NCBI GenBank assembly: GCA_965217585.1
Contig: OZ244561.1
Coordinates: forward strand, 640,001 to 704,000
Length of the DNA stretch: 64,000 nt
Direction of reading: 5' to 3'
Origin: Candidatus Latescibacterota bacterium
Lineage (GTDB): Bacteria > Latescibacterota > UBA2968 > UBA8231
Both the position numbers and the translations under genes were made by a program. The notes under the pieces are model-generated. The model saw only the letters and a list, made by a program, of their open reading frames with translations, ran no database searches and was not told the DNA's origin. Below are positions 377 through 52,497 of this stretch, piece after piece (the first letter of the stretch is position 1; the number at the start of each line of letters is the position of its first letter).

Positions 377-461
377 CGCATTTTTAATTGGAAGCACCAA
401 TGAACCATCTTCGATAAATATAGCACAATCCCCCTCCCCAGACCAAATCGCGCAAGGGGCG

Positions 462-977: not shown

Positions 978-1000
978 GGGCAAAGACGAGATGTAAAAGA

Positions 1001-1078
1001 TGGGGTGGATGACGGGAATTGAACCCGCGCCCTCCAGGGCCACAACCTGGCGCTCTAACCAACTGAGCTACACCCACC
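1001..1078 (-). tRNA. tRNA-His(GTG)
   Basis: GGTGGGTGTAGCTCAGTTGGTTAGAGCGCCAGGTTGTGGCCCTGGAGGGCGCGGGTTCAATTCCCGTCATCCACCCCA; G-1, GTG anticodon, encoded CCA. Confidence 0.96.
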
Positions 1079-1099
1079 ACTATGTCTTGAGGGCTTGCA

Positions 1100-1176
1100 T
1101 GGCGTGCCCAGTAGGACTCGAACCTACGACCGTCTGCTTAGAAGGCAGATGCTCTATCCAACTGAGCTATGGGCAC
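1100..1176 (-). tRNA. tRNA-Arg(TCT)
   Basis: GTGCCCATAGCTCAGTTGGATAGAGCATCTGCCTTCTAAGCAGACGGTCGTAGGTTCGAGTCCTACTGGGCACGCCA; TCT anticodon, encoded CCA. Confidence 0.96.
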
Positions 1177-1203
1177 ATCGCCAAGCGGTGCAAGCATTCA
1201 AAG

Positions 1204-1232
1204 ATATTAGGGGCTATTGCGATCAAAGTCAA
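1204..1232 (-). promoter_or_regulatory. Sigma70-type promoter for tRNA-Arg/His
   Basis: TTGACT (1232-1227), 17 nt spacer, TAATAT (1209-1204), about 28 nt upstream of tRNA-Arg. Confidence 0.65.
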
Positions 1233-1302
1233 CGCGACTCGCGGCTAGGCCGGACCTCTGCCGGGGCCGGGGGTCGCCATGTATCCGCCGGGCCCCAACC
1301 GC

Positions 1303-3333
1303 CTACTCGACCGGGACCTCGCCGCCATGCCAAGGAAAGGCGTAGCTGGGGTCGTTTACAAACCGTCTCAGGCCGCAGGATAGGCGCACGGACGTCATCG
1401 GCGGCAAGGTCACGGTGAAGTGCTTGCCGTTGACCTGAATGGTATTCGCGGTCGCGGTCTTGATCGAACGCACGCGGGTATTGGGGTTGAGGTCGTCGCT
1501 GCTGTAATCCGTCCCCGTGAACTCCACTTCCGTGAAGGAATGCTCGCCGAAGGCGCCGGACTGGACGATGAGGTTCCGGCACTCGCTGTGGCTCGTGTTC
1601 ACTAGCTGGATTCCGCATCCATTGGCGGAGAGATCATCGACGAGGGCGGCCACGTCCGGCGGCAGGCCGGGGCGGATGGCGTCGGCGTCGAAGTAACGCA
1701 CGGTCGCGCGCAGTATTCCCCCGTTGTAGAGTTGACCGGGGCAGCCCATGGTCGTCTGCACGAGGCCCTTGACGATCACGGGATTTGGCGGCCAAGCGTT
1801 GTCTGCGATGATCTGCTGGACGGTGCGGGTGTCGCGCATCATACCCTCGAGGAAATCGGCGACCTGTTGGTAGTCGGCCTGCAAACACTGCACCGGCCAG
1901 TCCGGGTTCTTGCCGTCGTAATACTGGAAGCGGGCGAATTCGGTGCGAGCGCCGCCGCGGTCGCCGATGGGCGGGAGCTCGTTCCAGTCGGTGCCGCCGC
2001 CGTCCCGCACCTGGGTGACCAGCTCGTAGTCGCCCTGTGACATGGACTCGTGCCACAGGTTGACCAGATGGGTGGGGCCGCCGCGGATGGTGAACTCGGC
2101 GTAGCCGGTCCAGCCGTCGGGCCCGTGGCTCTTCGGCACCACCAGCTCGCCCTGCTCGGTCTTGCCGCGGTCGAGGAGGGCGACGATCTGCGAGCGCAGC
2201 ACTTCGAGGTAGTCGTCGTCGCCGCTGAGCAGATGGGCGCACTGGGCCCCGACGATGAGACCGAGAAAGAGTCGGTCGGCGGCACTCTCGCTGCTGCTCC
2301 AGCCGTGCAACCCCCCCCACCACTGGCCGTCGTGGTGTTCGCCGATCTTGCCGGTGGGACCGACGTTGTCGGGAATGACCCCATCGTTGTCGCGGATGCG
2401 CTCTATCCAGCCGCCGACGTAGTCGAGGACCCACTTCTTGTACTTCTCGTCGCCGGTGTAGAGGTAGGCGTTGGTCACCAGCGCCGTGGCGCAGAGGCCG
2501 GCCGGCTCGTCGCCCTGCAGCGCCATCTCGTCGAAGAGGTCGAGGATCTCCTCGCGACGAGCTTGGTCCTCGTACCACCGTGGCTCGAGCTCCTTGATCT
2601 TCGGGTAGAGGAAGTGAGGCGTCAGCGGCTCGGTACTCGGATTGTCTTGGAGCGCGTTGCGATGGCCAAAATCGCCCAGCGAGCCGCGATCGAGCCAGTG
2701 GCGCACCAAGTGGACGTGATCCGAGATGTCCCCTCCTCGTTGGACAATGCCTTCGTGCTGGCGCACGGACGTCATCGGGCCGGCACCGCCGTGGAGTGGC
2801 GAGCGGAAGACACCGTGCTCGGTATCGAAGTTGGGCGCGTTGGGGTCCTCGCCGATGTACATGGCGGCGAACTTGCGGGCGCGCTCGCGGTTGGACGGAT
2901 TGGTCGGATCGGCGACGCCGAAGTCGTAGAGCATCTGATTGCCCTCGCCCATGTGGAACCAGTCGGCGTTGAAGGGGATGCTGAGGTTCCAGTACTCGTT
3001 GCGCAACTGCGGCATGTACATGGGATGCTTAGGCTCGTCGTCGGTCAGCTTGCGCTCTTCGCTGTAGAGCCAAGTGATCGCATCCCATTCCCGCTTGGCG
3101 ATGTGGAGGAAGCGCTCGTGGCCGCCTAGGGCGTAGAGCATGGCGCGCATGGAGCGGCTTTCGTAGGCGTCGTCCACGTCGAAGAAATGGTACACCCGGC
3201 CGTCGGAGCGGGCATAGCCCTCCGTGGCGCTGTCGCCCGCTGTCTCCAAGATGCTGAACAGGCGACGCTGCAGCAACGCCCACTTGGGCGGGGGGAGGAT
3301 GTCGGTACTAACGATGGTCGGTATGGTAGCCAT
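1303..3333 (-). CDS. Uncharacterised 676 aa cytoplasmic protein, paralog 1 (putative alpha/alpha-toroid enzyme)
   Basis: Long ORF with plausible RBS. Shares NAYLYTGDEKY, PDNVGPxGxIGE, WWGGxxGW, YNGG, RPGLPPDVAALV and QxGxFGEHxF with ORFs 6962 and 47818. Fold is inference. Confidence 0.85.
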   Translation of the reverse strand: MATIPTIVSTDILPPPKWALLQRRLFSILETAGDSATEGYARSDGRVYHFFDVDDAYESRSMRAMLYALGGHERFLHIAKREWDAITWLYSEERKLTDDEPKHPMYMPQLRNEYWNLSIPFNADWFHMGEGNQMLYDFGVADPTNPSNRERARKFAAMYIGEDPNAPNFDTEHGVFRSPLHGGAGPMTSVRQHEGIVQRGGDISDHVHLVRHWLDRGSLGDFGHRNALQDNPSTEPLTPHFLYPKIKELEPRWYEDQARREEILDLFDEMALQGDEPAGLCATALVTNAYLYTGDEKYKKWVLDYVGGWIERIRDNDGVIPDNVGPTGKIGEHHDGQWWGGLHGWSSSESAADRLFLGLIVGAQCAHLLSGDDDYLEVLRSQIVALLDRGKTEQGELVVPKSHGPDGWTGYAEFTIRGGPTHLVNLWHESMSQGDYELVTQVRDGGGTDWNELPPIGDRGGARTEFARFQYYDGKNPDWPVQCLQADYQQVADFLEGMMRDTRTVQQIIADNAWPPNPVIVKGLVQTTMGCPGQLYNGGILRATVRYFDADAIRPGLPPDVAALVDDLSANGCGIQLVNTSHSECRNLIVQSGAFGEHSFTEVEFTGTDYSSDDLNPNTRVRSIKTATANTIQVNGKHFTVTLPPMTSVRLSCGLRRFVNDPSYAFPWHGGEVPVE

Positions 3334-3451
3334 TTCTCGCCTTTCCTCTATTCGATTGAAAGGGAATTCGCCGTGCTAGGGGGACAGCTATTATAAGGTC
3401 AAATCCCTTCCTGAAGAAAGCCGGGCGGTGACCGATTGAGAGCAGGTCGGG

Positions 3452-5443
3452 CTAGTAGTGGTGGGAGAAGACCGGGACTTTGTTGCCGGTGCCACCGGCC
3501 AGCAAGTCGACGACGAGCCAGAACGCGGAGCAGGTAATCTGCCCCAATATGAAACCGAGAAAGAGGGGTCGCAGGGCGCGGTAGAGCCGGACTCCACCGT
3601 ACTTAAGGATGAAAGCCTTCAGGACCGATCCCAAGAAGATACTGAACCAACTCGCCGAGGTCATGTTGGTGGCGCTGACGGCGAAGCCGATATAGTGTAT
3701 GGGCCACCACAGGAAATGGTGCCGGGCCCAGATGAGGGCGGTCATGACGGCACCGCCGATGCCGGTGAACAACAACCGCGGGCCCATCACGTCAAAAGGC
3801 TCCAACAGGCTGACGGGGTTCAGAATTTTGTAGGCGGTGAAGCTGGAGGGCCCCTTGGCCATGGCCTGATACGCCCACAGCTCCAGATTGATGCCGCCGT
3901 GCTCGTAGGCGAGGTAGATGACGAGCCAGACCGAGGAGAGCAGGCTGACGAGCATGGCGACGACCATCGCCCAGAAAAGGGGACGCCGGAGCGCACCGAC
4001 GCCCTCGGCCAACTTCATGCCGTTGATGGCCGAGGCCATGAGCAGGATGCGAAGGTTGCCGGCCCAGCTAAAGGTCATGGCCAAGCTGAAGATGCCGGGC
4101 GGAGTGACGGAACCAGTGCCGAGAAAATTGATGACGATAGGCTGGGACGTCATCTGGGGCCGGATGAAGCCCAAGCCGCTCTCGGCGATGAGGCGGGCCA
4201 TGAACAGGAAGACGCCGAACGCCACCAGTAGGAAGACGATGGTCACCCACAGCGGCACCCCCGACAAGGTGAGCCAGGCCATCACGTAAAGGCTGCAGAC
4301 GCCCAGCAGCAGGGCGGCCGCCCGGTAGGAGAGCATCTCACCGCTGTCGTTGGTGGCGTTGGGGCCGGAACGCCAGACTTTGAGGGCGACCGTCTTGAGG
4401 TGATCTCGGGCCGTCCAGATGCCGTACGCGATGAGGGCCAGCATGGCACCCATGCCTTGGTGCGCCAGCATCAGGGTCCCCTCCATGAACTTCTCGATTT
4501 CCCCCGACAGCCGGTAGCCGATGGTGTACTGGAGCCCCATCTGCAGGTTGGCCAGCAAGTGGAACAGCCAGAGGCTGGAGGCCAACGCGAAGCTGAGGAA
4601 GTAAGCCAAGCCGAGGACGGTAAAGCTGAGGAGGATTTCGAGGGCACCAAAGTCGCGAAAGGGTACGATGACGGTGTACAGGTTGACCTTGGGAATGGAC
4701 GGAAAATAGAAATTCAGTCCGTGGGTACTCATCAGGCAGAACGGCACTAAGAAGCCAACCCACATGAGCGGGCTCTTCAGGAATGGGCCGAAGCGATCGC
4801 CGGGCCGGCCCTCCTCGATCATCTGCAAAGGCAGCTGCACTAGCGGGAAGAGCAGGCGCTCGTGGTCCACCCATTGCCGGCGCAGCAGCACCATCAGCGC
4901 GATCATCATCAGGTATATGGCCACGATGAAGCTGAGCCAAGCGACCAGCGGCACGACCCAAGCACTCCAGGGGATGGCCGCGCCTTCGGGCAGGCCCTCA
5001 AAGAAATAGCTGACGGCATCGTGGTCATGAACCACCATCCAGCGGTGGATGTGGGGGTGGATGAGCTCGGACCAGTCGTTCTCGACCGTGGCGAAGTAGT
5101 AAACCGCCGGGAGCATCGGGATGAGGTTGGCCGAAAAACCCCAGGTGGGAATGGTCGAGGCGATGATGAGCATCACGTAGATCACGGCCAGTTCGCCGCG
5201 ATTGAAGCCCCAAGGCGGATGCACCAGCTTGAGCAACGGATTGAGAAAAGCGGTGAGGAGGAAGAAGACGGCCACGGCCCCGGCGGTGATGTAGTCCGAG
5301 GACATACCGGCCGTGGACAGGGCCAGCCGGCAGTAGGCAAAGCCGACGCTGATGAGCAGGGACAACAAGGTCCCGGCGATGATGCTGCGGGCAAAGCGCA
5401 GGTGGGTCTCGCCAGCGGCTTGTGGGGTGCAGGAAGCGGCCAT
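3452..5443 (-). CDS. DUF6785/DUF6784 family polytopic membrane protein (OPT-like putative transporter)
   Basis: Many hydrophobic segments; ELAVIY, YFATxENDW, FFEGLP, LRRQWxxxERLxFPLVQLP, WWPIHxIG, LKYGG, RPLFLGFILG. Start at ATG 5443 with GGAG RBS. Confidence 0.8.
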   Translation of the reverse strand: MAASCTPQAAGETHLRFARSIIAGTLLSLLISVGFAYCRLALSTAGMSSDYITAGAVAVFFLLTAFLNPLLKLVHPPWGFNRGELAVIYVMLIIASTIPTWGFSANLIPMLPAVYYFATVENDWSELIHPHIHRWMVVHDHDAVSYFFEGLPEGAAIPWSAWVVPLVAWLSFIVAIYLMMIALMVLLRRQWVDHERLLFPLVQLPLQMIEEGRPGDRFGPFLKSPLMWVGFLVPFCLMSTHGLNFYFPSIPKVNLYTVIVPFRDFGALEILLSFTVLGLAYFLSFALASSLWLFHLLANLQMGLQYTIGYRLSGEIEKFMEGTLMLAHQGMGAMLALIAYGIWTARDHLKTVALKVWRSGPNATNDSGEMLSYRAAALLLGVCSLYVMAWLTLSGVPLWVTIVFLLVAFGVFLFMARLIAESGLGFIRPQMTSQPIVINFLGTGSVTPPGIFSLAMTFSWAGNLRILLMASAINGMKLAEGVGALRRPLFWAMVVAMLVSLLSSVWLVIYLAYEHGGINLELWAYQAMAKGPSSFTAYKILNPVSLLEPFDVMGPRLLFTGIGGAVMTALIWARHHFLWWPIHYIGFAVSATNMTSASWFSIFLGSVLKAFILKYGGVRLYRALRPLFLGFILGQITCSAFWLVVDLLAGGTGNKVPVFSHHY

Positions 5444-5591
5444 TCTGCTCCGTTCCGGCGCTCCGCGGCACCGGAGTTTGTATGGGACGAGTTGACGGCC
5501 TGCGGAGGAATCGCCTGCTTGTCCGGAACTAATTAAAGAAGCGACAATTTGTGCGTTCTGTCGATGCAGCCTGATTAGGAGGAAGGAGCTT

Positions 5592-6710
5592 ATGACCCAA
5601 GACAACAGGACCTATCGCGTCGCCTTGATCGGCTGCGGCCGCAAGGGGCACGGACACGCCCGGGGGTACGCGGGCAATCCGCGCACCGAGATCGTCGCCG
5701 CCGCCGATCCGGACGCCGACAATCTGAAGCTGTTTCTGGAACACTTTCCGGTGCAGGGGTATGCCGACTACCGCGAGCTGCTCGCCCAAGAGGAGATCGA
5801 CATCGCCGCCCCGATCCTGCCGGTGCAGCCCAACCCGCAAGTCGTCATCGATTGTTCCGGTGCCGACGTCAAGGCCATTTACTGCGAAAAGCCGATGGCG
5901 GCGAGTCTGGCGGAAGCCGACGCCATGGTTCAGGCCTGCGAATCGCGGGGCATCGCCTTTGCCTCGGGGGACGCCTACCGAAACATGCCCCAGCATTGGA
6001 AGGTCAAGGGCCTCATGGACTCGGGCGACCTCGGGGAGCTGTGCAGCATCAATCTGTACCAGTCCACCAACGAGATCTCGGGGGGCGGCTGCCAAGGCCT
6101 CAGCGTCCTGCGCCTATTCGCCGACGACGCCGACGTGGAATGGGTGACCGGCTGGTGCCTCGGCGACCCGTTTTCGGACGACGACCAGTGCATGGGTGGG
6201 CACGTCCGGTTCGCCAACGGCGCGGACGCCTTCATCCACACCAAGCGCTCGCCTCTCGAGGGCATCGAGGTAGTGTGCAGTAAGGGCGTGTACCATTCGA
6301 CCTGGAACAGCGGTCATCTCTGGCGGGGTGAGCCTCATAAGAAACTGGCGGAAGAGGAAGGTTTCTTCGCGGAATTTGGCGATCCGGAGGACTGGATCAA
6401 CCCCAGCGGTACGCGCCAGCGCGGCGGCATCCAGTCCATTGTTGAGGCCCTCGACCAGGGCATCGAACCCCGCTGCAGCGGGGCCAACATGCGCAAGGTG
6501 CTCGAGATCGCCATCGGCCTGCGCCAGTCGCACCGCGAGAATCACGCACCCGTCCGCTTCCCCATCCGGGACCGCAGCCAGAAGATCGTCCCGGCGAGGA
6601 GCCGCTTGCTCAACAAGAAGGAGACCCTAGGCGAGGAGCGTTATAGCGAGCAGATCAAGTCGGCGGCCGAAAAACCGCTCGGCGGGGCCGCAGTGGAAAC
6701 GGCGAGGTGA
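5592..6710 (+). CDS. Gfo/Idh/MocA family oxidoreductase
   Basis: YRVALIGCGRKG Rossmann motif and CEKPMA motif; AGGAG RBS. Confidence 0.9.
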   Translation: MTQDNRTYRVALIGCGRKGHGHARGYAGNPRTEIVAAADPDADNLKLFLEHFPVQGYADYRELLAQEEIDIAAPILPVQPNPQVVIDCSGADVKAIYCEKPMAASLAEADAMVQACESRGIAFASGDAYRNMPQHWKVKGLMDSGDLGELCSINLYQSTNEISGGGCQGLSVLRLFADDADVEWVTGWCLGDPFSDDDQCMGGHVRFANGADAFIHTKRSPLEGIEVVCSKGVYHSTWNSGHLWRGEPHKKLAEEEGFFAEFGDPEDWINPSGTRQRGGIQSIVEALDQGIEPRCSGANMRKVLEIAIGLRQSHRENHAPVRFPIRDRSQKIVPARSRLLNKKETLGEERYSEQIKSAAEKPLGGAAVETAR

Positions 6711-6961
6711 TGGTATCGTCGAGGCCGCCGGTTCGCCGCCTCGATCGCGTCCAGACCGTTGGGGCGAAAAGTGAGTTTTCTCGGTTTGGCTTAGATTCTA
6801 TATTTTATCCCTGCTCCCGCACGTCGCATACCACAGGACGCTCGCCTTTGTCAGCCGCTTTTGCGGCAAGCGGCGTCATGGGGGCCATCGTCGGCGGGGT
6901 CTAGGTGAAGCAGATGGGCGGACAGAAACGGGATGATTGACCAACGATCAAGGAGGCTGCT

Positions 6962-8992
6962 GTGACCGATATGAGTGCATTGCCGCAGATCACCGCGACC
7001 CGGGTGGGTGCGCCGCCGGCCTGGGCCCTACTAGAGCGCAATCTCATCGCCCAGATGGAGGAGGGAGCTCGGTTCAGGTTTCGCCAGTGTACGGAGCGCG
7101 GTGGGGCCATCCTCTACGCCGAGGATTTCGACGATCTCTTCGAGCAATTCTACAACTGGGGCCTGTTCTACGCCATGGGGGCGGACGATAGCTTGCTCGA
7201 GATGGCGGCGACGGCGTGGAACGCGACAGTCCGAATCAGCGATGAGAACATCGTCCATCGCACCCGGTTTAACGACCACAAGAAGGTCTTCCGGCCCTCG
7301 GCCCGGCGGGAGTTCTGGAATATCGAGCAGGCCATGGAGTGGCATCATCTGGGGGAGGGCATGATGGCCTTCTACGACTTCGGCGTCGCCGACCCGACGA
7401 TCTCGGAGATGGCCCGGCGCACCCAGCTATTCGCCGGATTCTACACGGGCGAGGATCCGGAGGCACCCAACTACGATCCAGAGCACAAAATTCTGCGGTC
7501 CCCCTTCCAGTCGAGCGAGGGGCCGTTGCAGGAAGTGGGGGCCGAGACCGCACACGCCATGCTCCTCGCGGGGCGCTGGCTGGGCAGCGAGGTCAACTAC
7601 TACGGCGTCCGCGCCAGTCTCTACCCGATCGTGGAAGACCTCGAGCTCGACTGGTGGGAGGACCCGGCGCGACGGGAGGAGATCGTCGACCTGTTCAACA
7701 AGCTGATTCTGCAGTCGGACACACCCAACAACCTAGGCGCCACGGCGCTGGTGACCCACGCCTACCTGTACACGGGGGACGAGAAGTACAAACGCTGGGT
7801 GCTGGAGTACACCGAGGCGTGGATGGAGCGGGCCGCGCAGAACGGCGGCATCATGCCCGATAACGTGGGACCCAACGGCATCATCGGCGAGCGTCGCAAC
7901 GGCAACTTCTGGGGCGGCCAGTACGGTTGGAACCACTATCAGGGCTTCAACATCATGTTTCACAGCCTCAACATCGCCGCCGAATGCGCCCTGCTGCTGA
8001 CCGGCGACTTCGGCTACCTCGATCTGCTCCGCGATCAGGTCAAAATCCTCCTCGATGCCTCCATCAAGAGAGAGGACGGTCAGCTAATTATGCCGACGCG
8101 CTACGGACCCTCTGGCTGGCAGTACGACCCACCCCTGCCGCGGCGGGAAGACACGATCGTGCCGATGCGCCACGTTTACACCGGTCCGATTCCCTGGCGT
8201 ATGCAGGAGTTGGCCCACCTGTACCACGCCTCCATGGCGCGGGAGGACTACGAGCTGATCGAGCAGGTGCGCGAGGGGGAGGTCGAGCGCGACTGGAATT
8301 CCGTTGGCGCGGTTGCCGGCGAAAAGAACGGGGGACAGACCGAGTTCGCCCGGTTCCAGTACTACGACGGCAAGAACCCGGAGTGGCCCGAGAAGATCCT
8401 AGCGGCCGAGTCGGAGTGGTCAATGCAGGCCATTAACCGGATGCGCAAGGACCAGCGCACCGCGATCGAAAGACTGCAGGAAAACGCCATTCCCGAGAAC
8501 CCGGTCTTTACCAAGGGCCTGACCCAAGTGACGATGGGGGGGCCCCAGTCCATCTACAACGGCGGGCTGCTGCGCGCCACGGTTCGCTACTACGACCGAG
8601 ACCAGCAGCGTCCCGGGTTACCTCCCGACGTCGCCGCCCTCGTCGACCATCTCGCAGCCGACGCCGTGGGGGTCCAGCTCGTGAACTGCAGCCGTGAAGA
8701 GGAGCGACGGTTGATCGTGCAGGCGGGTACCTTCGGGGAGCACACCTTCACGGAGGTGAGGACGGAGAATGGCGAGGGGACGGCACCGGCCACAACGCAC
8801 GTAAACGGCCGGTATGTCGCCGTCAATCTGCCGCCCGCGACGCAGGTGAGCCTCAACGCCGGTCTCTCCCGGTTCAGCAACAAGCCGAGTTACGCTTTCC
8901 CTTGGCACGGCGGTGAGATCCCGATCCCGTTTCCCGTAAACGCGGGTGCAACCGGCAGATCGGGTTCAGCATACGTGGCGCCGTCTCGTTGA
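6962..8992 (+). CDS. Uncharacterised 676 aa cytoplasmic protein, paralog 2
   Basis: AAGGAGG RBS before GTG; same motif set as 1303..3333, including TEFARFQYYDGKNPxWP and PSYAFPWHGGE. Confidence 0.85.
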   Translation: MTDMSALPQITATRVGAPPAWALLERNLIAQMEEGARFRFRQCTERGGAILYAEDFDDLFEQFYNWGLFYAMGADDSLLEMAATAWNATVRISDENIVHRTRFNDHKKVFRPSARREFWNIEQAMEWHHLGEGMMAFYDFGVADPTISEMARRTQLFAGFYTGEDPEAPNYDPEHKILRSPFQSSEGPLQEVGAETAHAMLLAGRWLGSEVNYYGVRASLYPIVEDLELDWWEDPARREEIVDLFNKLILQSDTPNNLGATALVTHAYLYTGDEKYKRWVLEYTEAWMERAAQNGGIMPDNVGPNGIIGERRNGNFWGGQYGWNHYQGFNIMFHSLNIAAECALLLTGDFGYLDLLRDQVKILLDASIKREDGQLIMPTRYGPSGWQYDPPLPRREDTIVPMRHVYTGPIPWRMQELAHLYHASMAREDYELIEQVREGEVERDWNSVGAVAGEKNGGQTEFARFQYYDGKNPEWPEKILAAESEWSMQAINRMRKDQRTAIERLQENAIPENPVFTKGLTQVTMGGPQSIYNGGLLRATVRYYDRDQQRPGLPPDVAALVDHLAADAVGVQLVNCSREEERRLIVQAGTFGEHTFTEVRTENGEGTAPATTHVNGRYVAVNLPPATQVSLNAGLSRFSNKPSYAFPWHGGEIPIPFPVNAGATGRSGSAYVAPSR

Positions 8993-9010
8993 ACAGCGCC
9001 AGCCGGCGTC

Positions 9011-10183
9011 CTAGGCCGAGGCCAGCACCCGCACGACGTTTTCCCCCATGATCTTGGCCGCGTCCGTCTCGGAATAGCCATGGTCGATCAACGCCGCGGT
9101 GTACTCCTTCCACTGCGGCACACTTTGTGCATGGGAGGAAAGGCCGACATGGTCGATTCCCGCCGCGTTGATTACATGGTCTATGGTGGCTAAGTCGAGC
9201 TTGGTGCCCCAGATCTCCGCGTCGGCCAACTTGGCCTGGGCACGCTCGAACGGGTCGGGGTAGCGCCGGTGCAGGGCGTCGTCGCGCTTGCGCCGGGCCT
9301 CGTGTCGTTCGCGAGGAGTTCGCGGCGTCGGCGCCAAGACGCAGACCACGCCTCCGCCATCTGCTACTTCCCGCATCAGGTCGTCCGGCATGTCGCGCAG
9401 ACTCCGGCTGAGAGCCCGGGCTTTGGTGTGGGTGGCTATCATCGGCTTCGTCGCCACTGTTAGGGCATCTCTGCAGGTGTAGTCGGAGCAGTGCGCCAAG
9501 TCGACGAGCATACCGAGTTCGTTGCAGGTGCGGATCACGTCGCGCCCAAAGTCGGTCAAGCCGGGGGGATCGTTCAACTCGGCGCTGGAGTCGGCCCAAG
9601 AGGGCGCGCTCAGGTGGCTGGGGCACATGACCCGTATGCCCTCGCGGTAAAACTCGCGGAGCACGTCGAGACGGTCCGCGATAAAGCCGCTCACCAGCAT
9701 CAGCACCATCGCGATCCTGCCGTCGGCGACGATCCTAGAGACGTCATCGCCGGAGCAGGCGACCTCGACGTAGTCCCCGTAGGCCGCGGCGAACTGCTTG
9801 TGCTCTTCGAGGTTCATCACCACGCGCTCGAGGAGCTCCTCGCCTTCAAAGAATGGCTTCCACTGCTTGGACCCGCGAGTCGGTTCGGTTAGGGAATCGA
9901 ACTCCGGCGTCTCGGCTACGTACTGTTCCTCCACCCCGAACGCTTGGATGACCACGTCGATGCGTCCGCGGATGTTCTCCGCTAGATCTACCACAGCCGA
10001 GTAGGCGTCGACCACGGTGAGCTGCCGATGGAGTTGGTCGTACGGGCCGTGATCGAAGCGGTCATCGAGAACGCAGTGGGTCGACGCGTCCAGCCGGCCG
10101 ATCTTTTGGCCGATCGGCAGGCCCAGCCTCTCGGTCTCGCGGCTTTCGACGTACTTAGTGCCTATGTCAGGTCGCCTAGTCAT
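9011..10183 (-). CDS. Membrane dipeptidase (M19) family protein, divergent active site
   Basis: GLTDFGRDVIRTCNELGMLVDLAH, IATHT, ADGGGVV, IDHVINAAGIDHVGL match the M19 fold; several metal ligands are missing. Confidence 0.8.
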   Translation of the reverse strand: MTRRPDIGTKYVESRETERLGLPIGQKIGRLDASTHCVLDDRFDHGPYDQLHRQLTVVDAYSAVVDLAENIRGRIDVVIQAFGVEEQYVAETPEFDSLTEPTRGSKQWKPFFEGEELLERVVMNLEEHKQFAAAYGDYVEVACSGDDVSRIVADGRIAMVLMLVSGFIADRLDVLREFYREGIRVMCPSHLSAPSWADSSAELNDPPGLTDFGRDVIRTCNELGMLVDLAHCSDYTCRDALTVATKPMIATHTKARALSRSLRDMPDDLMREVADGGGVVCVLAPTPRTPRERHEARRKRDDALHRRYPDPFERAQAKLADAEIWGTKLDLATIDHVINAAGIDHVGLSSHAQSVPQWKEYTAALIDHGYSETDAAKIMGENVVRVLASA

Positions 10184-10250
10184 CCCGATCACCGACGGGC
10201 AGATGGCCGATAAAGTATGCCGCGGCAGGTACGGCTACGCAGCCTCGCGG

Positions 10251-10447
10251 CTAGGACGGCCCACCGCTTTCGTTGTTGACTGCCTGCACCAGCGCCCGCA
10301 TATAGGCGATGGAGTACGCGACGCCCACGCGACTTCCTCCGATTATCTCGGGGATATGGTCGGGGATGATGGCCCCGTCGAACTCAACGGCGCGCTGGCG
10401 TACAAGCCGGGGACAGCGCGCAGTGCGTAGGGTCTGTTGGCGGTCAT
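10251..10447 (-). pseudogene. Internally deleted mannonate dehydratase (UxuA-like) remnant
   Basis: ATG 10447 overlaps the upstream gene's TGA and follows AAGGAAGG. In a different frame, 10388-10251 reads VEFDGAIIPDHIPEIIGGSRVGVAYSIAYMRALVQAVNNESGGPS*, matching the UxuA C-terminus. Confidence 0.7.
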
Positions 10448-11232
10448 GGCGTGCCTTCCTTTATCAGTTCTGAGACCGGCTGCGACCTTTCCCAGCGCAG
10501 CGCGATCTCTTGGTCAATGCCGCAAAGCCAGTGCCAAGTGCGGATGCGCCGCACCCGGTCGCGGTAGGATTCGACTTCGGTCGCGTAGGGCAGGCGCGGA
10601 CGATCGCGGTAGGGGGGAATCTCCGCCCCATCGCAGAGCCAGTCTCGCTGTGGCGCGGCCATGCGGTGGTAGGAAAACTTGATCATGCTGCGGGCGCGGT
10701 CGTTGGTTTTGGGGCCGGCCTTGTGCCAGATGCCATAACGGGTCAGCACCACGGTGCCGGCCGGCACCGTCAGCGAGACTTGGCCGCGGATATCGCCGTA
10801 GTGGGCGATGGCTTCGCGATCGACGGCGCGGCAATGCGAGCCGGGCAGAACCATAGTCGGCCCGTCGGCGAGCGCGACGCTGTGCGGGTAGTAGTAGCAC
10901 TGGAGCTCGACGACATCGTAGCCGCTGCCCGAAAGCCCGTCCGAATGCCAGGTCTGGCCGAAGTGCGGCTCCTTGAAAAAGTGGTGGTGGCCGCCTCGGG
11001 GCACCAAGAAGTCCTCGCCCAAAAGCGAGCGTGCAACCCCGGCGACTTGGGGATGCAGGAGCACCTGGTGAGTGAAGTCGTCCCCAGCGATAAAGGCGTC
11101 GCAATTGCCGGGGGCGAGGTCGTCGCAGCAGCGATTGAAGCGCTCGTTGATGGCGCTTTCGAGGACGACCAAGCCGGAGGCGACAAAGTCCATGACGCCG
11201 TCGTCGTCTAGCGTCGGTCTAATTGGGGACAT
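10444..11232 (-). CDS. Phytanoyl-CoA dioxygenase (PhyH) family Fe(II)/2OG oxygenase
   Basis: WHSD (HxD), GPTMVLPGSH, AGTVVL...IWH, distal R. Confidence 0.85.
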   Translation of the reverse strand: MSPIRPTLDDDGVMDFVASGLVVLESAINERFNRCCDDLAPGNCDAFIAGDDFTHQVLLHPQVAGVARSLLGEDFLVPRGGHHHFFKEPHFGQTWHSDGLSGSGYDVVELQCYYYPHSVALADGPTMVLPGSHCRAVDREAIAHYGDIRGQVSLTVPAGTVVLTRYGIWHKAGPKTNDRARSMIKFSYHRMAAPQRDWLCDGAEIPPYRDRPRLPYATEVESYRDRVRRIRTWHWLCGIDQEIALRWERSQPVSELIKEGTP

Positions 11233-11240
11233 AGTTTCTC

Positions 11241-11600
11241 CTAAACGAATTTTTCGAGCACGAACTCATAGCCGAGGTAGTCGTTGTCCTGGCCCTCGTA
11301 CGCGTAGAGCTTGGCGATGGGAAACTGTACCACGCGCCAGCCATCGGCCACGGCCGCGAGCACCGACTCATAGGGCGGTTCGTCTCGGGGCAGGGTCGGC
11401 ATTTGCGGCTGGGTAGCGTCGTACAAGGCCCAGCTAGCGAGCGGCGAGCGCATATTGGTCGATTTGGCGTAGAGGTAGAGGACCTGCTGGCGAGGCTCGG
11501 CGAGCAAGGCACCGAGGCGGTCGAGATCCGCGGCGGTAATCGCCTCGGTGCGGAGCTTGTCCCGGCAGTGTGCCAACCAGTCTTTTACAGCTTCGTGCAT
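11241..11600 (-). CDS. Small hypothetical protein co-transcribed with PhyH
   Basis: AGGAG RBS before ATG 11600; 8 nt gap to the PhyH start; motifs RQQVLYLY, PPYESVLAAVADGWRVVQFP, YEFVLEK. Confidence 0.7.
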   Translation of the reverse strand: MHEAVKDWLAHCRDKLRTEAITAADLDRLGALLAEPRQQVLYLYAKSTNMRSPLASWALYDATQPQMPTLPRDEPPYESVLAAVADGWRVVQFPIAKLYAYEGQDNDYLGYEFVLEKFV

Positions 11601-11671
11601 ATAGGCTCCTGATAGCGTCGGCGGCATAAGAAAGCGTCCCCATTTAGCGCGGTCAACAAGCGGCGGGGTGC

Positions 11672-12694
11672 CTAGTAATCAACCACCACTTTTATGGTTT
11701 GAGGCTGGAGCGCTGCGTCGAAACCGGCGACCAAGTCGGGAAAGGTGACGCACTGCGAGATGAGGGGGTCGAGGTCTAACTGCCGCCGCGCCAACAGATC
11801 GAGGGCTTGGGAAAATACGTGGGCAAAGCGGAAGGAGCCGCGGACGGTCAATTCCTTTTGCATGACCAAGTTGACCGGCAGTTCAATCGGGCCGCCCTGG
11901 ACGCCCAACTGCACGATGGTGCCACCGGCCTTGCAGTGCGCGTACGCGGCTTGCAGGGCGGCCGGAGCACCGGAGGCTTCCATGACCACATCGCTGCCCG
12001 CGCTCGCTGCCCGCGCCATGGCCGCCGGATCGTCGGCGCGCACGGGCTGATCGGCCCACAGCGACGACGCCAAGTCGAGTGCACTTTGGCGAATATCGCT
12101 GACGGCGAGATGGGCCGCTCCGTAGTGCCGAGCGACTAGGCCGATGAGCTGGCCGATGGGACCAGCACCGGTCACCAGTACGCGCTTGCCAGCAATGCCC
12201 CCCGCTTGGCCGACGCCGTGGACGGCAATGGATAGCGGTTCAAGTAGGGCCGCTTGACGATAGTCCATTGCGGCAGGCAGCGGATGGCAGTTGTGCGCAT
12301 GGACTTGCACGTATTCGCGGAACGAGCCGTCTTGGGGTGGGCTACAGGCAGCAGAGCCGAAGTAGCGCATCTGCGGGCAGAGGTTGTAGCGGCCCTGACG
12401 GCAGTGAGCGCATCTGCGGCAGGGGTGGGACGGGTCAATGGCCACTCGGCTGCCCATCGGCAGCACGTCTGCGAAAGCCCCCGCATCGACGACTTCCCCG
12501 GCCGACTCGTGCCCGAGGACAAAGGGGCGCTCCGGGACGAAATCGCCGTTTCTGCCGTGTACATAGTAATGCAGGTCCGAGCCACAGATGCCAGTGGCGC
12601 GAATCTGCACCAAGACCTCGTCTGCGGCGATCTGCGGCCGGTCGATTTCCGCGGCTCGCAGGTCGCGAGCGCCGTGTAGGTAAAAGGCTCGCAT
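11672..12694 (-). CDS. Zn-dependent sugar/sugar-acid dehydrogenase (L-idonate 5-dehydrogenase / sorbitol dehydrogenase-like)
   Basis: GICGSDLHYY, LGHESAG, CxxCxxCx7C, EPLSIAVH, GAGPIG, GSFRF. Confidence 0.85.
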   Translation of the reverse strand: MRAFYLHGARDLRAAEIDRPQIAADEVLVQIRATGICGSDLHYYVHGRNGDFVPERPFVLGHESAGEVVDAGAFADVLPMGSRVAIDPSHPCRRCAHCRQGRYNLCPQMRYFGSAACSPPQDGSFREYVQVHAHNCHPLPAAMDYRQAALLEPLSIAVHGVGQAGGIAGKRVLVTGAGPIGQLIGLVARHYGAAHLAVSDIRQSALDLASSLWADQPVRADDPAAMARAASAGSDVVMEASGAPAALQAAYAHCKAGGTIVQLGVQGGPIELPVNLVMQKELTVRGSFRFAHVFSQALDLLARRQLDLDPLISQCVTFPDLVAGFDAALQPQTIKVVVDY

Positions 12695-12830
12695 GAAGCG
12701 GATAGTAGCGGCCAAAATAAGGCGCGTCAAGGGAAAGAGCTAGCCATGGCGAAAGTTGCCTGCCGCAGGCGTTGTGCGTACTGTGCAGGCACCCTGTTAA
12801 CAGCTCATCCCATCAGAAAGGGGACCTGCC

Positions 12831-13802
12831 GTGAAACTCGGCCTCAAGTTCAGCCTCGACGCGCTCAGCAAAGAAAACCTGCAATTCGCCCAACAGATGG
12901 GCGTCACGCACATCGTCGTCCACAGCCCCCGCCTCGGCAACGAGGGCGTCCTCGATTACTTCGAATTGTTGCGGATGAAAAAATTCATCGACTCGTTCGG
13001 CTTGGAGCTGTGCGCCATCGAGAACTTGCCCGGCGACCACATGCACCCCATCACCCACGCGACGCCAGAGCGCGACGCCCAGTTGGCGAAAGTTTGCACA
13101 TCCATTGAAAACATGGGGAAAATCGGCATCCCGGTCCTCGGCTACTACTTCAGCTTGGCCGGCGTCTCCGGCCACTGGCGCGCGTACGACAGTGGCGGCG
13201 GACGCGGTGGGGCTGGACTTAAAAGCTTCGATTACAGCTTAGTCAAGGACGCGCCGCCGATTGTTGATGAGTCGGTCTCGGTCGCCGAGATGTGGGAGCG
13301 ATTGGCCTATTTTCTCGAACGAGTAGTGCCCGTCGCCGAAAACGCCGGGGTCAAACTCGCCGCCCACCAAGACGACCCCCCGGCCGAAACCCTCTTCGGC
13401 ACGGGGCGGCTCTTGACCAACCACGACGCCATGCAGCGGTTGATTGACCTCGTGCCCAGTCCTAGCAATGGGCTGGAGTTTTGTCAGGGAACGGTGGCAG
13501 AAATGGGGCCGGACGAGACGATCTCAGCCGTGCGCCGCTTCGCCGCACAGGGCAAGATATTCTACGTGCATTTCCGCAATGTGCGCGGCGGCTTCCCCAA
13601 ATTCGACGAGGTCTTTATCGACGAGGGAGACGTCAACATGATCGCCGCGCTCAAAGCCTATCGCGACGCTGACTACGACGGAATCATCACGCCCGACCAC
13701 ACGCCCCGCGTAATCGGCGACGAGCCGTACGGACACCGGGGTCGAGCTTTCGCCCTAGGGTACATTCGCGCCGGAATGCAGGCGCTGGAATTGCTGGATT
13801 AG
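12831..13802 (+). CDS. uxuA: Mannonate dehydratase (UxuA) family
   Basis: FLERVVPVAENAGVKLAAHQDDPP, NGLEFCQG, IFYVHFRNV, FIDEGDVNM, PDHTP, AFALGYI. Confidence 0.85.
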   Translation: MKLGLKFSLDALSKENLQFAQQMGVTHIVVHSPRLGNEGVLDYFELLRMKKFIDSFGLELCAIENLPGDHMHPITHATPERDAQLAKVCTSIENMGKIGIPVLGYYFSLAGVSGHWRAYDSGGGRGGAGLKSFDYSLVKDAPPIVDESVSVAEMWERLAYFLERVVPVAENAGVKLAAHQDDPPAETLFGTGRLLTNHDAMQRLIDLVPSPSNGLEFCQGTVAEMGPDETISAVRRFAAQGKIFYVHFRNVRGGFPKFDEVFIDEGDVNMIAALKAYRDADYDGIITPDHTPRVIGDEPYGHRGRAFALGYIRAGMQALELLD

Positions 13803-13823
13803 TGGGAAGGGGTGAGGGTCTAG

Positions 13824-13911
13824 TGGTGCCGAGGGCCGGACTCGAACCGGCACGTCCTAAGCGGACAGTGGATTTTAAGTCCACCGCGTCTACCAATTCC
13901 GCCACCCCGGC
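13824..13911 (-). tRNA. tRNA-Leu(TAA)
   Basis: GCCGGGGTGGCGGAATTGGTAGACGCGGTGGACTTAAAATCCAC...GGTTCGAGTCCGGCCCTCGGCACCA; long variable arm. Confidence 0.96.
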
Positions 13912-13926
13912 GCACAGATAAAAAAA

Positions 13927-14000
13927 TGGAGGCGACGCCCGGAATCGAACCGGGGATAAGGGCTTTGCAGGCCCCTGCCTTACCACTTGGCCACGTCGCC
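13927..14000 (-). tRNA. tRNA-Cys(GCA)
   Basis: GGCGACGTGGCCAAGTGGTAAGGCAGGGGCCTGCAAAGCCCTTATCCCCGGTTCGATTCCGGGCGTCGCCTCCA. Confidence 0.96.
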
Positions 14001-14015
14001 TCAAACAAGGGTTTG

Positions 14016-14044: not shown

Positions 14045-14095
14045 CCTGTCTGCCGCCCGCTTGCGCTATGTGTTCCGAGCCAAGAATAGGTTACA

Positions 14096-14128: not shown

Positions 14129-14136
14129 AAACGCCT

Positions 14137-49684: not shown

Positions 49685-50416
49685 TTATTCAGGTCGCAAA
49701 TCCGTGTACCGCTCTCCCCGTGCCCCGCCTTCCCCGCGCACCAGAAACACCGGAATCGGATGTTGGTCCATGTCCACCCAAGCCGTGTCTGTGCTACAGT
49801 AGCGAATCGTATAACCAGCGCGCCGGCGGCCACTCTTATTGGCCCGGCTGCCGTGCAGAATGTAGGAGTCGTGAATGGATAGACTGCCGACTTTCATCTC
49901 CATCATCACGGCCTCGGCCTCCATTTCGGGGGCGACCAAGATCTTCTTTCTCAGCATCTCGGCCTCCCCTGAAGGCACGGTTTTCATCTCCCGGTACCCT
50001 CGGTGTGAACCGGGTATGATGCGCATGGCGGCGTTTTCGGCGTCCGCGTCGTCGAGCGCCAACCACACCGTAGCCACATCAGTGCCGCGTACGCTGGGCC
50101 AGTAGTTGTTGTCCTGGTGCCAGCCCACGCTGATTCCATCGCCCGGAGGCTTGATGAACATGCTCGAATAGACCAAGATCAGGTTGGGACCTAGGACGGC
50201 CTCCACTGCGTCGAGCAGGCGCGGATGGCGGCAGACCTCCAGCCAGAACACTTCCTTGGTATGCGGCTCCCCGTAGTATTGATCCCGGTCGAGAAAACCC
50301 GCACGCACGCCCACGTCCAGCGAATGCTGCATGGCGGCGACTTCGTCCGGCCCGAAAATATCGGAAAAAAAGCAATAGCCTTCTGTGGCAAAGCGCCCGG
50401 CGTCGGTATTCAGCAC
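49685..50416 (-). CDS. Phytanoyl-CoA dioxygenase (PhyH) family
   Basis: WHQD, VWLALDDA, IIPGSH, LHGS..N.S..RRAG; GTG start after AAGAGG. Confidence 0.88.
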   Translation of the reverse strand: MLNTDAGRFATEGYCFFSDIFGPDEVAAMQHSLDVGVRAGFLDRDQYYGEPHTKEVFWLEVCRHPRLLDAVEAVLGPNLILVYSSMFIKPPGDGISVGWHQDNNYWPSVRGTDVATVWLALDDADAENAAMRIIPGSHRGYREMKTVPSGEAEMLRKKILVAPEMEAEAVMMEMKVGSLSIHDSYILHGSRANKSGRRRAGYTIRYCSTDTAWVDMDQHPIPVFLVRGEGGARGERYTDLRPE

Positions 50417-50469
50417 GATACGCCTCTTGCAATTTTGCGGACGAGCCCGCGAGTCTGCACAGGTGTCTC

Positions 50470-51300
50470 TCAAATCCCGTAAACCCGGGCGGCGTTCTCC
50501 CCCAGCACTTTGGCCCGATCACCCTCGTCCAGTTCCGCGGCAAAAGTGCGGATTATTTCCAAACTCTGCCGGTACGTGATATGGCGGCCGACCGGCGGCC
50601 AGTCCGAGCCCCACAGCAGGCGGTCGGCCCCCAAGCCCTTGAGTAAGCGGCTGAAAAATCCCAGCGCCTGGGGGCAGCGGAAATCCCAGGGAGTCGCAGC
50701 CGCCGCGTAGAAGCCCGACGCTTTGATCGACAAATTGGGATAGGCCGATGCCTGCAGCAGTCCCCCGTATGTCTCATCTTGGGCATTGGGGCCGCCGGGC
50801 AGCGCGGGCAGGCCTAGGTGATTGGCGACAAAGCGGATCTCCGGATATCTCTGTGCCAACTCCAGCAAGATCCCGTAATTGGACGGCCCAATTTGCAGAT
50901 TACAGACTAAGCCGGTGTCTTTGTACGCCTGCCAAAGCGCGGCGCAAGGTTCTTCCAACAGCCACTGCATTCTCTCATCAAGCTTGGGTGGGTAGTAACT
51001 GGTGCCCACGGCACCGAATTCCTCGCCCGCCCGCAAGACCCGCTCGGCGGCGTCTTGCTGGTGCATGGGCACATCCGTCAATACGGCCAGTCGATCGGGG
51101 TGCTCTCGCCCCCACTGGGCGCACTCCTGATTGTTGCCCGGCGAGTAATCGGCCACCACCGGCAGCACGACGGCTTTGTCGACATCGCATTCGTCCATGT
51201 GGTGGAGGAGCCGATCTACCCGCCCTAGATCTTCCCAAGGGGCCATAGGAGCAAAGTTGGTAAGCACGTGAACATGAGCGTCGATAGCGGGCATTGACAC
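50470..51300 (-). CDS. Amidohydrolase family 2 protein (sugar-lactonase-like)
   Basis: IDAHVH, ANHLG, IKASG, RLLWGSDWP, GENAARVY. Confidence 0.85.
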   Translation of the reverse strand: MSMPAIDAHVHVLTNFAPMAPWEDLGRVDRLLHHMDECDVDKAVVLPVVADYSPGNNQECAQWGREHPDRLAVLTDVPMHQQDAAERVLRAGEEFGAVGTSYYPPKLDERMQWLLEEPCAALWQAYKDTGLVCNLQIGPSNYGILLELAQRYPEIRFVANHLGLPALPGGPNAQDETYGGLLQASAYPNLSIKASGFYAAAATPWDFRCPQALGFFSRLLKGLGADRLLWGSDWPPVGRHITYRQSLEIIRTFAAELDEGDRAKVLGENAARVYGI

Positions 51301-51516: not shown

Positions 51517-52497
51517 ATGTCGAATGTATCTCTCGTCAGAGTGGGCGTTCTAACCTGCGCCCGGTACGTGCACATCACGGGTATATGGGGTCCGATCATT
51601 GACCCCACCTGCCAGCACCAATTCATGGGCTGCACGACGCGTATGACCGGTATGGTCATGACCCACGTTTGGGATGTAGATAAAGAAGGCGTCAAGGATT
51701 TCTGCGATACGTACAAAGGAGTCGAAGCGGTGGAGAACTATTGGGATATGGTCGGCAAGGTAGACGGCGTCATCCTCTCCGATTTTGATTCGACCCTACA
51801 TTTCAAAGAATTGGCCAGACCCTATTTGGAAGCCGGCGTCCCCATCTTCATCAATCGCCCTTTTGCCCTCAACCTCCAAGACGCGCAGGAAATAATCGAT
51901 CTATCCAAAAAGCACGACACCCCCATTATGTCGGGTTCTTCCTTCGGCTCAGCGCCGGAAATTGAGCATATCAAACGCGAGGTGGCGGCCATCGAACCAA
52001 TCAGGGGCTTTGCCGCGGCCAATTCCATGTCCGATTACGCTACCCACGGCATTCATGGCCTGTACATGATCTACGCATGTATCGGCGGCGGCATTAAAAG
52101 CGTGGCCTACCAGACGCCCGACTGGCATGTCCCCAATGGTCACCTCACCTTTGAATACGAACCCAGAGGAGCAGAGGGGAAGACCTTTTACGGATCGTTG
52201 CAGGAAATATCGGGGACATGGGGCTGGATCCGGGTGTTTGGAGAGCGCACCTTCGAGCAGTTCGTGCACAGTGGCATCCACTTCTGGGTTCCTCTGCTGC
52301 TGGAGATGCAGGAGATGTTTGAAACCCGAAAAATGCCCGAACCCCACGAGGCCATATACGAGAAGGTGCAGATGTTTCTGGCCGGCTTCAAATCGCACGT
52401 GGAGAGTGGCGGTGCCCCGGTGCGGCTGGACGAAATCGGCGACTGGACGGCTCCACTGCTCAATCCTGATCCGTACCCCAACGGGTTTTTCAAATAG
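51517..52497 (+). CDS. Divergent Gfo/Idh/MocA-like oxidoreductase
   Basis: THVWD, VDGVI, H.ELARPYLEAGVPIFINRPFA, YATHGIH. Confidence 0.7.
   Translation: MSNVSLVRVGVLTCARYVHITGIWGPIIDPTCQHQFMGCTTRMTGMVMTHVWDVDKEGVKDFCDTYKGVEAVENYWDMVGKVDGVILSDFDSTLHFKELARPYLEAGVPIFINRPFALNLQDAQEIIDLSKKHDTPIMSGSSFGSAPEIEHIKREVAAIEPIRGFAAANSMSDYATHGIHGLYMIYACIGGGIKSVAYQTPDWHVPNGHLTFEYEPRGAEGKTFYGSLQEISGTWGWIRVFGERTFEQFVHSGIHFWVPLLLEMQEMFETRKMPEPHEAIYEKVQMFLAGFKSHVESGGAPVRLDEIGDWTAPLLNPDPYPNGFFK

What the first reader, a model, noticed from the sequence alone, without database searches (positions are those of the whole stretch)
1303..11600. Repeated uncharacterised catabolic module: unknown 600-680 aa enzyme + DUF6785/6784 transporter + one Gfo/Idh/MocA subfamily + PhyH + amidohydrolase fold
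Seen: the same five gene types occur together here and again at 47.8-55.9 kb, with about 33 kb of housekeeping genes in between. Order and orientation differ and the proteins have clearly diverged, so this is not a recent duplication. The two Gfo proteins (5592, 54784) share a distinctive tail (PRCSG...LE(I/V)AI.LRQSHR...DRS), and each sits beside a DUF6785/6784 gene. Known: Gfo/Idh/MocA enzymes oxidise sugars and glycosides; PhyH enzymes are Fe(II)/2OG oxygenases; as far as I know DUF6785/6784 have no assigned substrate. Inference: this is an uptake / oxidise / cleave system for modified glycosides or amino-sugar conjugates, feeding the sugar-acid enzymes nearby (idonate-DH-like, UxuA).
Basis: partly seen in the sequence, partly recalled or inferred. 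Interest (0 to 1): 0.82.

Follow-up and report, generated by a model that had tools for sequence, protein, structure and literature searches.

The report
Loose sugar-acid gene cluster around DUF8034
The two gene clusters are real but are a reshuffled mix of heavily multiplied enzyme and transporter families, not a fixed five-gene unit; their most interesting member is an unstudied barrel-shaped enzyme that elsewhere sits in sugar-acid breakdown operons.

Summary
The genes are as described. The unknown protein is DUF8034/PF26099 (13 copies in this genome). It is a cytoplasmic alpha/alpha toroid, probably seven hairpins, plus a beta-sandwich, with invariant Asp/Glu/His and no close solved relative (Z about 12). 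DUF6785/6784 has the OPT/Yellow-Stripe transporter fold (Z 24.8).

The fixed five-gene module does not hold. The paired PhyH genes and the paired amidohydrolases show no BLAST similarity. All five types co-occur in 4 of 79 related loci, all at 92-97% identity. DUF8034 is not enriched near DUF6785 in five other genera (8/79 against 5.3 random and 8.8 local). A third five-type cluster in this genome and a few orthologue-level links keep a weak tie alive.

Elsewhere DUF8034 lies with enolase-family dehydratases (43/77 loci), sugar ABC or sugar-acid MFS transporters, KdgD, lactonases and pectin enzymes. None of those 77 loci has DUF6785 and one has PhyH. Best reading: an accessory island for sugar-acid catabolism, with DUF8034 an untested eliminase/dehydratase (0.4), glycosidase (0.3) or epimerase (0.2).

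The parts
1001..1176 (-). tRNA-His and tRNA-Arg, left border of the variable segment
1303..3333 (-). DUF8034 (PF26099) copy U1, 676 aa
   Evidence: 43% to U2, 33% to U3; same clade as U2, support 100
3452..5605 (-). DUF6785+DUF6784 membrane protein D1 (likely start 5443, 663 aa), OPT/YSL fold
   Evidence: Pfam; model pLDDT 91; 7wsr Z 24.8, 555 aligned, rmsd 3.8; Foldseek E 4.7e-7, TM 0.63
5592..6710 (+). Gfo/Idh/MocA oxidoreductase G1; its close clade lies near DUF8034 more than chance in some relatives
6962..8992 (+). DUF8034 copy U2, 676 aa
9011..10192 (-). Peptidase_M19-fold protein with altered metal and catalytic positions; stays beside U2 orthologues
10444..11232 (-). PhyH-type oxygenase P1; belongs with the small gene upstream
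11241..11627 (-). 128-aa protein with no Pfam family; 6 of 6 paralogues lie directly upstream of a PhyH gene
11672..12730 (-). Zn-dependent dehydrogenase; best model L-idonate 5-dehydrogenase, below cut-off (280 of 469 bits)
12831..13802 (+). UxuA-like dehydratase; below the mannonate dehydratase cut-off (148 of 191 bits), one of 16 paralogues
13824..14000 (-). tRNA-Leu and tRNA-Cys, right border of the variable segment
47818..49641 (-). DUF8034 copy U3, 607 aa, the folded model; a different clade from U1 and U2
49685..50473 (-). PhyH-type oxygenase P2, no BLAST hit to P1
50470..51300 (-). Amidohydro_2 protein, weakly lactonase-like (46 of 400 bits)
51517..52497 (+). Gfo/Idh/MocA G3, a separate clade from G1 and G2
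52667..54600 (+). DUF6785/6784 gene D2, in two frames (52667-53887 and 53800-54600)
54784..55887 (+). Gfo/Idh/MocA G2, with the shared C-terminal tail

Best explanation
The two clusters are independently assembled pieces of catabolic islands, in a genome whose closest relatives are Ca. Latescibacterota and which has multiplied a small set of families. Cluster 1 is variable cargo between two tRNA pairs. Its looser core is the U1/U2 clade of DUF8034, the G1-type Gfo, D1 and the M19-fold gene. PhyH with its small partner, and the dehydrogenase/UxuA pair, are separate pieces.

Working model (fold, conservation and contexts shown; chemistry inferred): an OPT/YSL-fold importer brings in a small polar solute. 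NAD-dependent dehydrogenases and lactonase-like amidohydrolases make a sugar acid. DUF8034, a cytoplasmic alpha/alpha-toroid enzyme with an Asp/Glu/His site that may bind a metal, acts on a sugar acid or its small glycoside or ester.

Most likely (0.4) it removes the proton next to a carboxylate and eliminates water or a substituent, giving a keto-deoxy acid for KdgD or aldolase-type enzymes. Hydrolysis of a glycoside (0.3) or epimerisation (0.2) remain open.
For: Fold: pLDDT 95.4. All top structural matches are alpha/alpha toroids (GH76, GH47, GH88, AGE epimerases, PL2; Z 10-12). The longest alignments are to GH47 and PL2 (347-392 residues).

Site: D59, E63, H113, E116, D233, W303, E551 and H552 are invariant in 53/53 sequences from archaea and several bacterial phyla; D59/E63, H113/E116 and D233 lie at the starts of helices. 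None of the 13 copies has a hydrophobic N-terminus.

Context: enolase-family dehydratases in 43/77 metagenome loci, adjacent in 24. Sugar ABC parts in 19-29, SDR in 22, Amidohydro_2 in 16, AKR in 16. In Asticcacaulis and Sphingobium a D-galactonate-type MFS gene lies directly upstream and KdgD is near, both above cut-off. Pectate lyase, GH28, GH4 or uxaC is present in 9 of 11 haloarchaeal loci viewed.

Not a fixed module. tRNA borders.
Against: No activity was tested and no characterised relative is detectable: profile probability at most 21.6%, no PDB sequence hit. Z about 12 for a helical protein may reflect only a common arrangement. In this genome DUF8034 is not near enolase-family genes (1/13 within 5 genes). 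Cluster 1's neighbours in relatives include peptidase, penicillin-binding and metallo-hydrolase folds, so the U1/U2 clade may act on something other than a plain sugar acid. The context loci are related lineages, not independent draws, and have no matched null. A third five-type cluster in this genome and one in G099 (L201) fit a tighter link than I propose.
Confidence: 0.6

Rival explanations
1. A true five-part uptake/oxidise/cleave system, rebuilt many times from different paralogues for different glycosides.
For: 3 five-type windows in this genome against 0.07 expected. Orthologues of U1, D1, G1 and U2+M19 (79-90%) lie within about 17-40 kb in G088 and G061, in part in G099, G107 and G078. 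U3 and D2 orthologues are head-to-head in G095. G1-clade near DUF8034 8/23 against 1.2 random and 2.5 local.
Against: DUF8034 near DUF6785 8/79 against 5.3 and 8.8; none of the 79 has both DUF6785 and Amidohydro_2 within 6 kb. All five types in 4/79 loci. DUF6785 in 0/77 and PhyH in 1/77 metagenome loci. Two Dehalococcoidia genomes with tandem DUF8034 have no DUF6784 match. In same-genus G083 cluster 2 is split 180 kb apart.
Confidence: 0.12
2. DUF8034 is a new glycoside hydrolase family that frees sugars from imported oligosaccharides, with two carboxylates as acid and base; the sugar-acid genes act downstream.
For: Best structural matches are GH76, GH47, GH127/146 and GH88. Invariant D59, E63, E116, D233 and W303. 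Sugar ABC importers, alpha-L-fucosidase, GH3 and GH4 lie beside it.
Against: Its directly upstream transporter in two Alphaproteobacteria scores as a sugar-acid MFS. Its commonest neighbours are dehydratases. The GH88 alignment (probability 6.6%) puts no invariant acid on the UGL Asp88 position.
Confidence: 0.3
3. DUF8034 is an AGE/YihS-like epimerase or isomerase that converts rare sugar acids or uronates into substrates for the neighbouring dehydratases.
For: AGE-family matches at Z 9-11 and TM up to 0.35/0.49. Invariant H113. Neighbouring dehydratases and uxaC.
Against: Only one invariant His in the barrel, whereas AGE enzymes use a His pair (recalled). The matches are no better than those to hydrolases.
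Confidence: 0.2
4. Pure chance: the co-location says nothing about function.
For: All the expanded families cluster with one another in this genome, and the DUF8034-DUF6785 link vanishes in five other genera.
Against: U2-M19 adjacency persists at 69-95% identity. G1-clade and Amidohydro_2 links exceed the nulls. Contexts in distant phyla agree on sugar-acid catabolism.
Confidence: 0.15

Closest known systems
GH47 alpha-1,2-mannosidases and PL2 pectate lyases (seven-hairpin toroids; hairpin number recalled)
   Same: Longest structural alignments with the lowest rmsd among the top rows (GH47 347-392 residues, rmsd 4.3-4.9, Z 10.5-12.1; PL2 373, rmsd 4.5, Z 10.3) and the best Foldseek TM (0.38/0.50).
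   Different: 7-13% identity; Pfam GH47 E 0.25; extra insertion and a C-terminal beta-sandwich; no shared motif shown.
GH76, GH88/GH105, AGE/YihS epimerases, YyaL-like 7tkv, AprG (six-hairpin toroids)
   Same: Z 9-12 and carboxylate/His residues at helix starts.
   Different: Profile probabilities 21.6% (YyaL-like), 6.6% (GH88), 1.4% (GH105-like); no Pfam or NCBIfam hit.
OPT/YSL transporters (barley YS1, 7wsr; Gomolplitinant and Saier, PMC3061005)
   Same: Whole-length fold, Z 24.8 against 6.1 for the next row.
   Different: 12-13% identity, no sequence hit to PDB, about 75 copies in one genome, substrate unknown. PMC3061005 (passages) predicted peptide uptake for many prokaryotic OPTs from context.
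Non-phosphorylative sugar-acid pathways with paralogue expansion (SAR202; PMC10444878)
   Same: The same enzyme classes surround DUF8034: dehydrogenase, lactonase, enolase-family dehydratase, aldolase, FAH hydrolase.
   Different: The passages read do not name a DUF8034-type step (I did not search that paper for the term); the window clusters carry no enolase-family gene.
Gfo-initiated oxidation/elimination glycoside cleavage (BT2156-2158 type; recalled)
   Same: The logic 'oxidise with Gfo, then cleave'.
   Different: No DUF1080 or dedicated isomerase-fold lyase in either cluster; G1 and G2 do not hit the glycoside 3-dehydrogenase model at E 1e-10.

Membership tests
DUF8034 (PF26099) | Family match over full length | tested here: met
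   All 120 listed homologues of U1 carry PF26099; Atlas score 0.97. The local Pfam copy gave no hit.
Conserved five-gene module | Partners in the two copies are nearest paralogues | tested here: not met
   Ranks 63/78, 20/76, 5/94, 6/13 and 7/13; PhyH pair no hit; amidohydrolase pair no hit.
Conserved five-gene module | Co-location above a paralogue-matched null in other genomes | tested here: not met
   8/79 against 5.3 and 8.8; 4/79; 0/77. PhyH and M19 were not in the five-genome test.
Conserved five-gene module | Co-location above null within this genome | tested here: inconclusive
   3 against 0.07, but two of the three defined the pattern.
Conserved five-gene module | Co-expression | not testable with these tools
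   Only contigs of RNA runs were available; they cover cluster 1 but give no level or strand.
OPT/YSL transporter superfamily | OPT/YSL membrane fold | tested here: met
OPT/YSL transporter superfamily | PF03169 sequence match | tested here: not met
   Pfam gives only DUF6785/6784; Atlas OPT cluster 0.77 is a lead only.
OPT/YSL transporter superfamily | Proton-coupled uptake of peptides or metal chelates | not testable with these tools
   needs a transport assay
GH88/GH105 | Sequence profile and catalytic Asp register | tested here: not met
   Probability 6.6% and 1.4%; register not kept in that weak alignment.
GH76 / GH47 / PL2 / AGE | alpha/alpha toroid fold | tested here: met
GH76 / GH47 / PL2 / AGE | Family HMM above cut-off | tested here: not met
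GH76 / GH47 / PL2 / AGE | Superposed catalytic residues and hairpin number | tested here: inconclusive
   No coordinates were available; seven hairpins are inferred from the helix list and alignment lengths.
Gfo oxidation/elimination glycoside pathway | 3-dehydrogenase plus lyase plus DUF1080 hydratase (recalled) | tested here: not met
M19 membrane dipeptidase | Binuclear site with HxD, Glu, two His and catalytic Asp (roles recalled) | tested here: not met
   In the alignment to 3id7 the Glu and the GGDY Asp positions are replaced and both His kept; Pfam score is above cut-off.

The most novel reading that the evidence does not exclude
DUF8034 is a new class of seven-hairpin, metal-dependent sugar-acid eliminase, unrelated to the enolase, IlvD/Edd and UxuA dehydratases, found from haloarchaea to marine Chloroflexota. 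In Latescibacterota particular paralogues are fed by OPT/YSL-fold importers of sugar acids or their conjugates, which would be a new substrate class for that transporter fold.
Probability: 0.22. Interest if true: 0.72.

Novelty: new variant of a known kind. Interest (0 to 1): 0.42.

Why it matters
The five-gene module is mostly a by-product of paralogue expansion, a useful caution for genomes of this kind. What remains is a large unstudied enzyme family: 1550 hits among 50%-identity representatives, in 97 of 121 genomes searched in this phylum, with 8-38 matches in each of five related genomes. It now has a fold, candidate catalytic residues and a pathway context. It also has homologues in cultured, tractable hosts: Haloferax volcanii HVO_RS01685, Asticcacaulis ASTEX_RS18220, Streptomyces and Devosia. 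That makes a missing step of sugar-acid and pectin catabolism, and part of how uncultured marine bacteria use carbohydrates, directly testable.

Tried and rejected
1. Recalled idea that DUF8034 keeps the GH88 catalytic register: not supported by hhalign.
2. Sequence searches of PDB with U1, the DUF8034 profile and the DUF6785 profile: nothing significant.
3. The UniRef label 'linalool dehydratase/isomerase domain' on two members: no Pfam hit, and it is not among the listed fold matches, which does not exclude it.
4. A locus scan with the alignment failed and was run with U2 alone, so those 79 loci lean to the U2 clade. The 77 metagenome loci come from a U3-like query.
5. Enolase-family or UxuA-like genes near DUF8034 in this genome: no enrichment.
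6. Unbiased neighbours of DUF6785 in this genome: TPR, ASPIC, secreted proteins and one PhyH group rank first; DUF8034 3/13, p=0.11.
7. RNA: contigs of two runs of one study cover all 30 bins of window 400-15100 and a run of a second study 18; no level, strand or co-expression follows.
8. Promoter and terminator scan: at chance level.
9. The careful DUF8034 tree did not finish; the quick tree is used.
10. Papers: none hold DUF6785, DUF6784, PF20580, PF20581 or PF26099. DUF8034 is in none of the 15 listed of 21. Searches gave nothing. Searches (guessed old Haloferax tags) gave one paper each, seen as listing only. Subscription journals and supplements were not seen.
11. No complex prediction was run, as no binding is claimed.
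Full report
What is there. The window lies in a 7.3-Mb single-contig genome whose closest titled relatives are Ca. Latescibacterota MAGs; the placement is inferred. The unknown protein is DUF8034/PF26099. The three window copies are 33-43% identical. U1 and U2 share a clade with Poribacteria and Dehalococcoidia proteins, and U3 lies apart (quick tree).

Background. My gene model gives 5734 genes, with 13 DUF8034, 78 DUF6785 hits, 115 Gfo, 209 PhyH and 40 amidohydrolases. PhyH expansion is described for Poribacteria (PMC3909097, passages). These families cluster with one another across the genome. All five types fall within eight genes three times against 0.07 expected (0/300), but only the cluster at 2.014-2.024 Mb is an independent test, and its members are distant from the window's. 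The partners of the two window clusters are not nearest paralogues, and the PhyH and amidohydrolase pairs show no BLAST similarity. The two Gfo share a 16-member clade whose other 14 members lack these neighbours.

Five other genera. In five near-complete genomes I used 79 DUF8034 (83 matches, fragments merged), 148 DUF6785 (150 of 175 matches were listed, two split pairs merged, 25 unseen), 117 Amidohydro_2, 23 G1-clade Gfo and 37 other Gfo. Contig lengths for the random null were approximated. DUF8034 had a DUF6785 within 6 kb in 8/79, against 5.3 at random and 8.8 with local shifts. G1-clade Gfo had a DUF8034 within 6 kb in 8/23, against 1.2 and 2.5 (0/300), but 18 of the 23 come from one genome. 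Amidohydro_2 within 3 kb was 7/79 against 2.2 and 2.6 (p 0.013), and not significant at 1 or 6 kb. DUF8034 near another DUF8034 was 18/79 against 3.5 and 9.3.

Other loci. Among 79 loci around U2 relatives (41 Latescibacterota-like, 25 Poribacteria, 13 Dehalococcoidia-like), DUF6785 occurred in 8, 0 and 0. All five types occurred in 4, all at 92-97% identity and one with only a DUF6785 remnant. Three Poribacteria genomes hold 14-59 DUF6784 matches and two Dehalococcoidia genomes none. This sample and the G-handle sample overlap and are not independent.

Cluster history. Cluster 1 lies between tRNA-His/Arg and tRNA-Leu/Cys. The five closest relatives differ in cargo and none has U1 there. In other genera U1, D1, G1 and U2+M19 orthologues stay in the same 17-40 kb islands, wholly or in part, while PhyH with its small partner and the dehydrogenase/UxuA pair lie elsewhere. 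One such region (L201) again has all five types; these regions were picked for holding orthologues and are not a fair count. Cluster 2 is split 180 kb apart in G083, yet U3 and D2 orthologues are head-to-head in G095, and U3 orthologues lie near several different Amidohydro_2 paralogues. So there are real pairwise ties but no fixed unit.

DUF6785. The model (pLDDT 91) matches only barley YS1: Foldseek E 4.7e-7, TM 0.63; Z 24.8, 555 aligned, rmsd 3.8, next row 6.1. It works like an OPT/YSL importer and lacks the PF03169 match; the substrate is unknown. PMC3061005 (passages) found prokaryotic OPTs uncharacterised and predicted peptide uptake from context. PMC11535203 (passages) names an OPT transporter without saying whether it is this family. 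Earlier scan notes reached the same fold; I looked at them only after my own fold result.

DUF8034. The U3 model (pLDDT 95.4) is an alpha/alpha toroid with a C-terminal beta-sandwich. Matches to GH76, a YyaL-like protein, GH47, GH88, AGE and PL2 are tied at Z 10-12. Profile comparisons give no membership. Eight positions are invariant in 53/53 sequences and no copy has a signal-like N-terminus.

Context in compact operons. Of 22 plasmid-collection hits I viewed 17. Nine of 11 haloarchaeal loci hold pectate lyase, GH28, GH4 or uxaC, and 7 hold a Gfo. Three of 4 actinomycete loci hold Amidohydro_2, two of them with fucosidase, AXE1, an RraA-like aldolase and a sugar ABC system. Both alphaproteobacterial loci have a D-galactonate-type MFS gene directly upstream and KdgD nearby. 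In 77 metagenome loci, enolase-family genes occur in 43 (adjacent in 24), DUF6785 in 0 and PhyH in 1; 31 of the 77 are shorter than 10 kb and many are kin. These are the enzyme classes of non-phosphorylative sugar-acid catabolism described for SAR202 (PMC10444878, passages).

Mechanism. Shown: folds, conserved residues and contexts. Inferred: import by the OPT-fold protein, oxidation to a sugar acid, and DUF8034 acting on that acid or a small conjugate. I favour elimination to a keto-deoxy acid (0.4), because a sugar-acid carrier and KdgD flank it in two loci where no glucarate or galactarate dehydratase was seen within about 8-10 kb (the Asticcacaulis locus has dgoD). Glycoside hydrolysis (0.3) and epimerisation (0.2) follow. 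Against this, the tie to enolase-family genes is absent in this genome, and U1/U2-clade islands hold peptidase-like folds.

Verdict. DUF8034 is a worthwhile, testable enzyme family that I did not find in print in the searches named. Interest 0.42.

Noticed in passing
window 11241-11627 and five paralogues in G000 (1546426, 2175271, 2488894, 3852036, 5923186): A small protein of about 90-140 aa with no Pfam family lies directly upstream of a co-oriented PhyH gene in 6 of 6 cases. The pair moves as a unit in relatives. It may be an oxygenase partner.
   Followed up: partly
window 9011-10192: M19-fold protein with the Glu ligand and catalytic Asp positions replaced (roles recalled), kept beside U2 orthologues at 69-95% identity.
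   Followed up: partly
window 52667-54600: One-base gap near 53863 splits D2; the orthologue in G083 is intact. Assembly error or recent loss is not decided.
   Followed up: partly
window 55984-61649: TPR and two ASPIC/UnbV FG-GAP genes at lower GC (0.47-0.57). ASPIC-type genes stay next to D2 orthologues in G083, G081 and G095, and TPR/ASPIC families are enriched beside DUF6785 genome-wide.
   Followed up: partly
G078 (C1 0.77-1.52 Mb, C2 0.28-2.65 Mb): 38 DUF8034 matches and 18 G1-clade Gfo in one genome, a joint expansion.
   Followed up: partly
L196:12653-14440, L197:5397-7019, L200:5599-6768: Three further proteins with no Pfam family recur in U1/U2-clade islands.
   Followed up: no
G000:C1:1039543-1043973 and 137652-144008: Large proteins next to or fused with DUF6785-like genes, including a 2118-aa fusion.
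   Followed up: no
window 62102-63004: Integrase-core (rve) transposase-like gene.
   Followed up: no
window 46981-47745: CBM9-like gene convergent on U3; a CBM9-like gene is also in the Haloferax volcanii locus.
   Followed up: no
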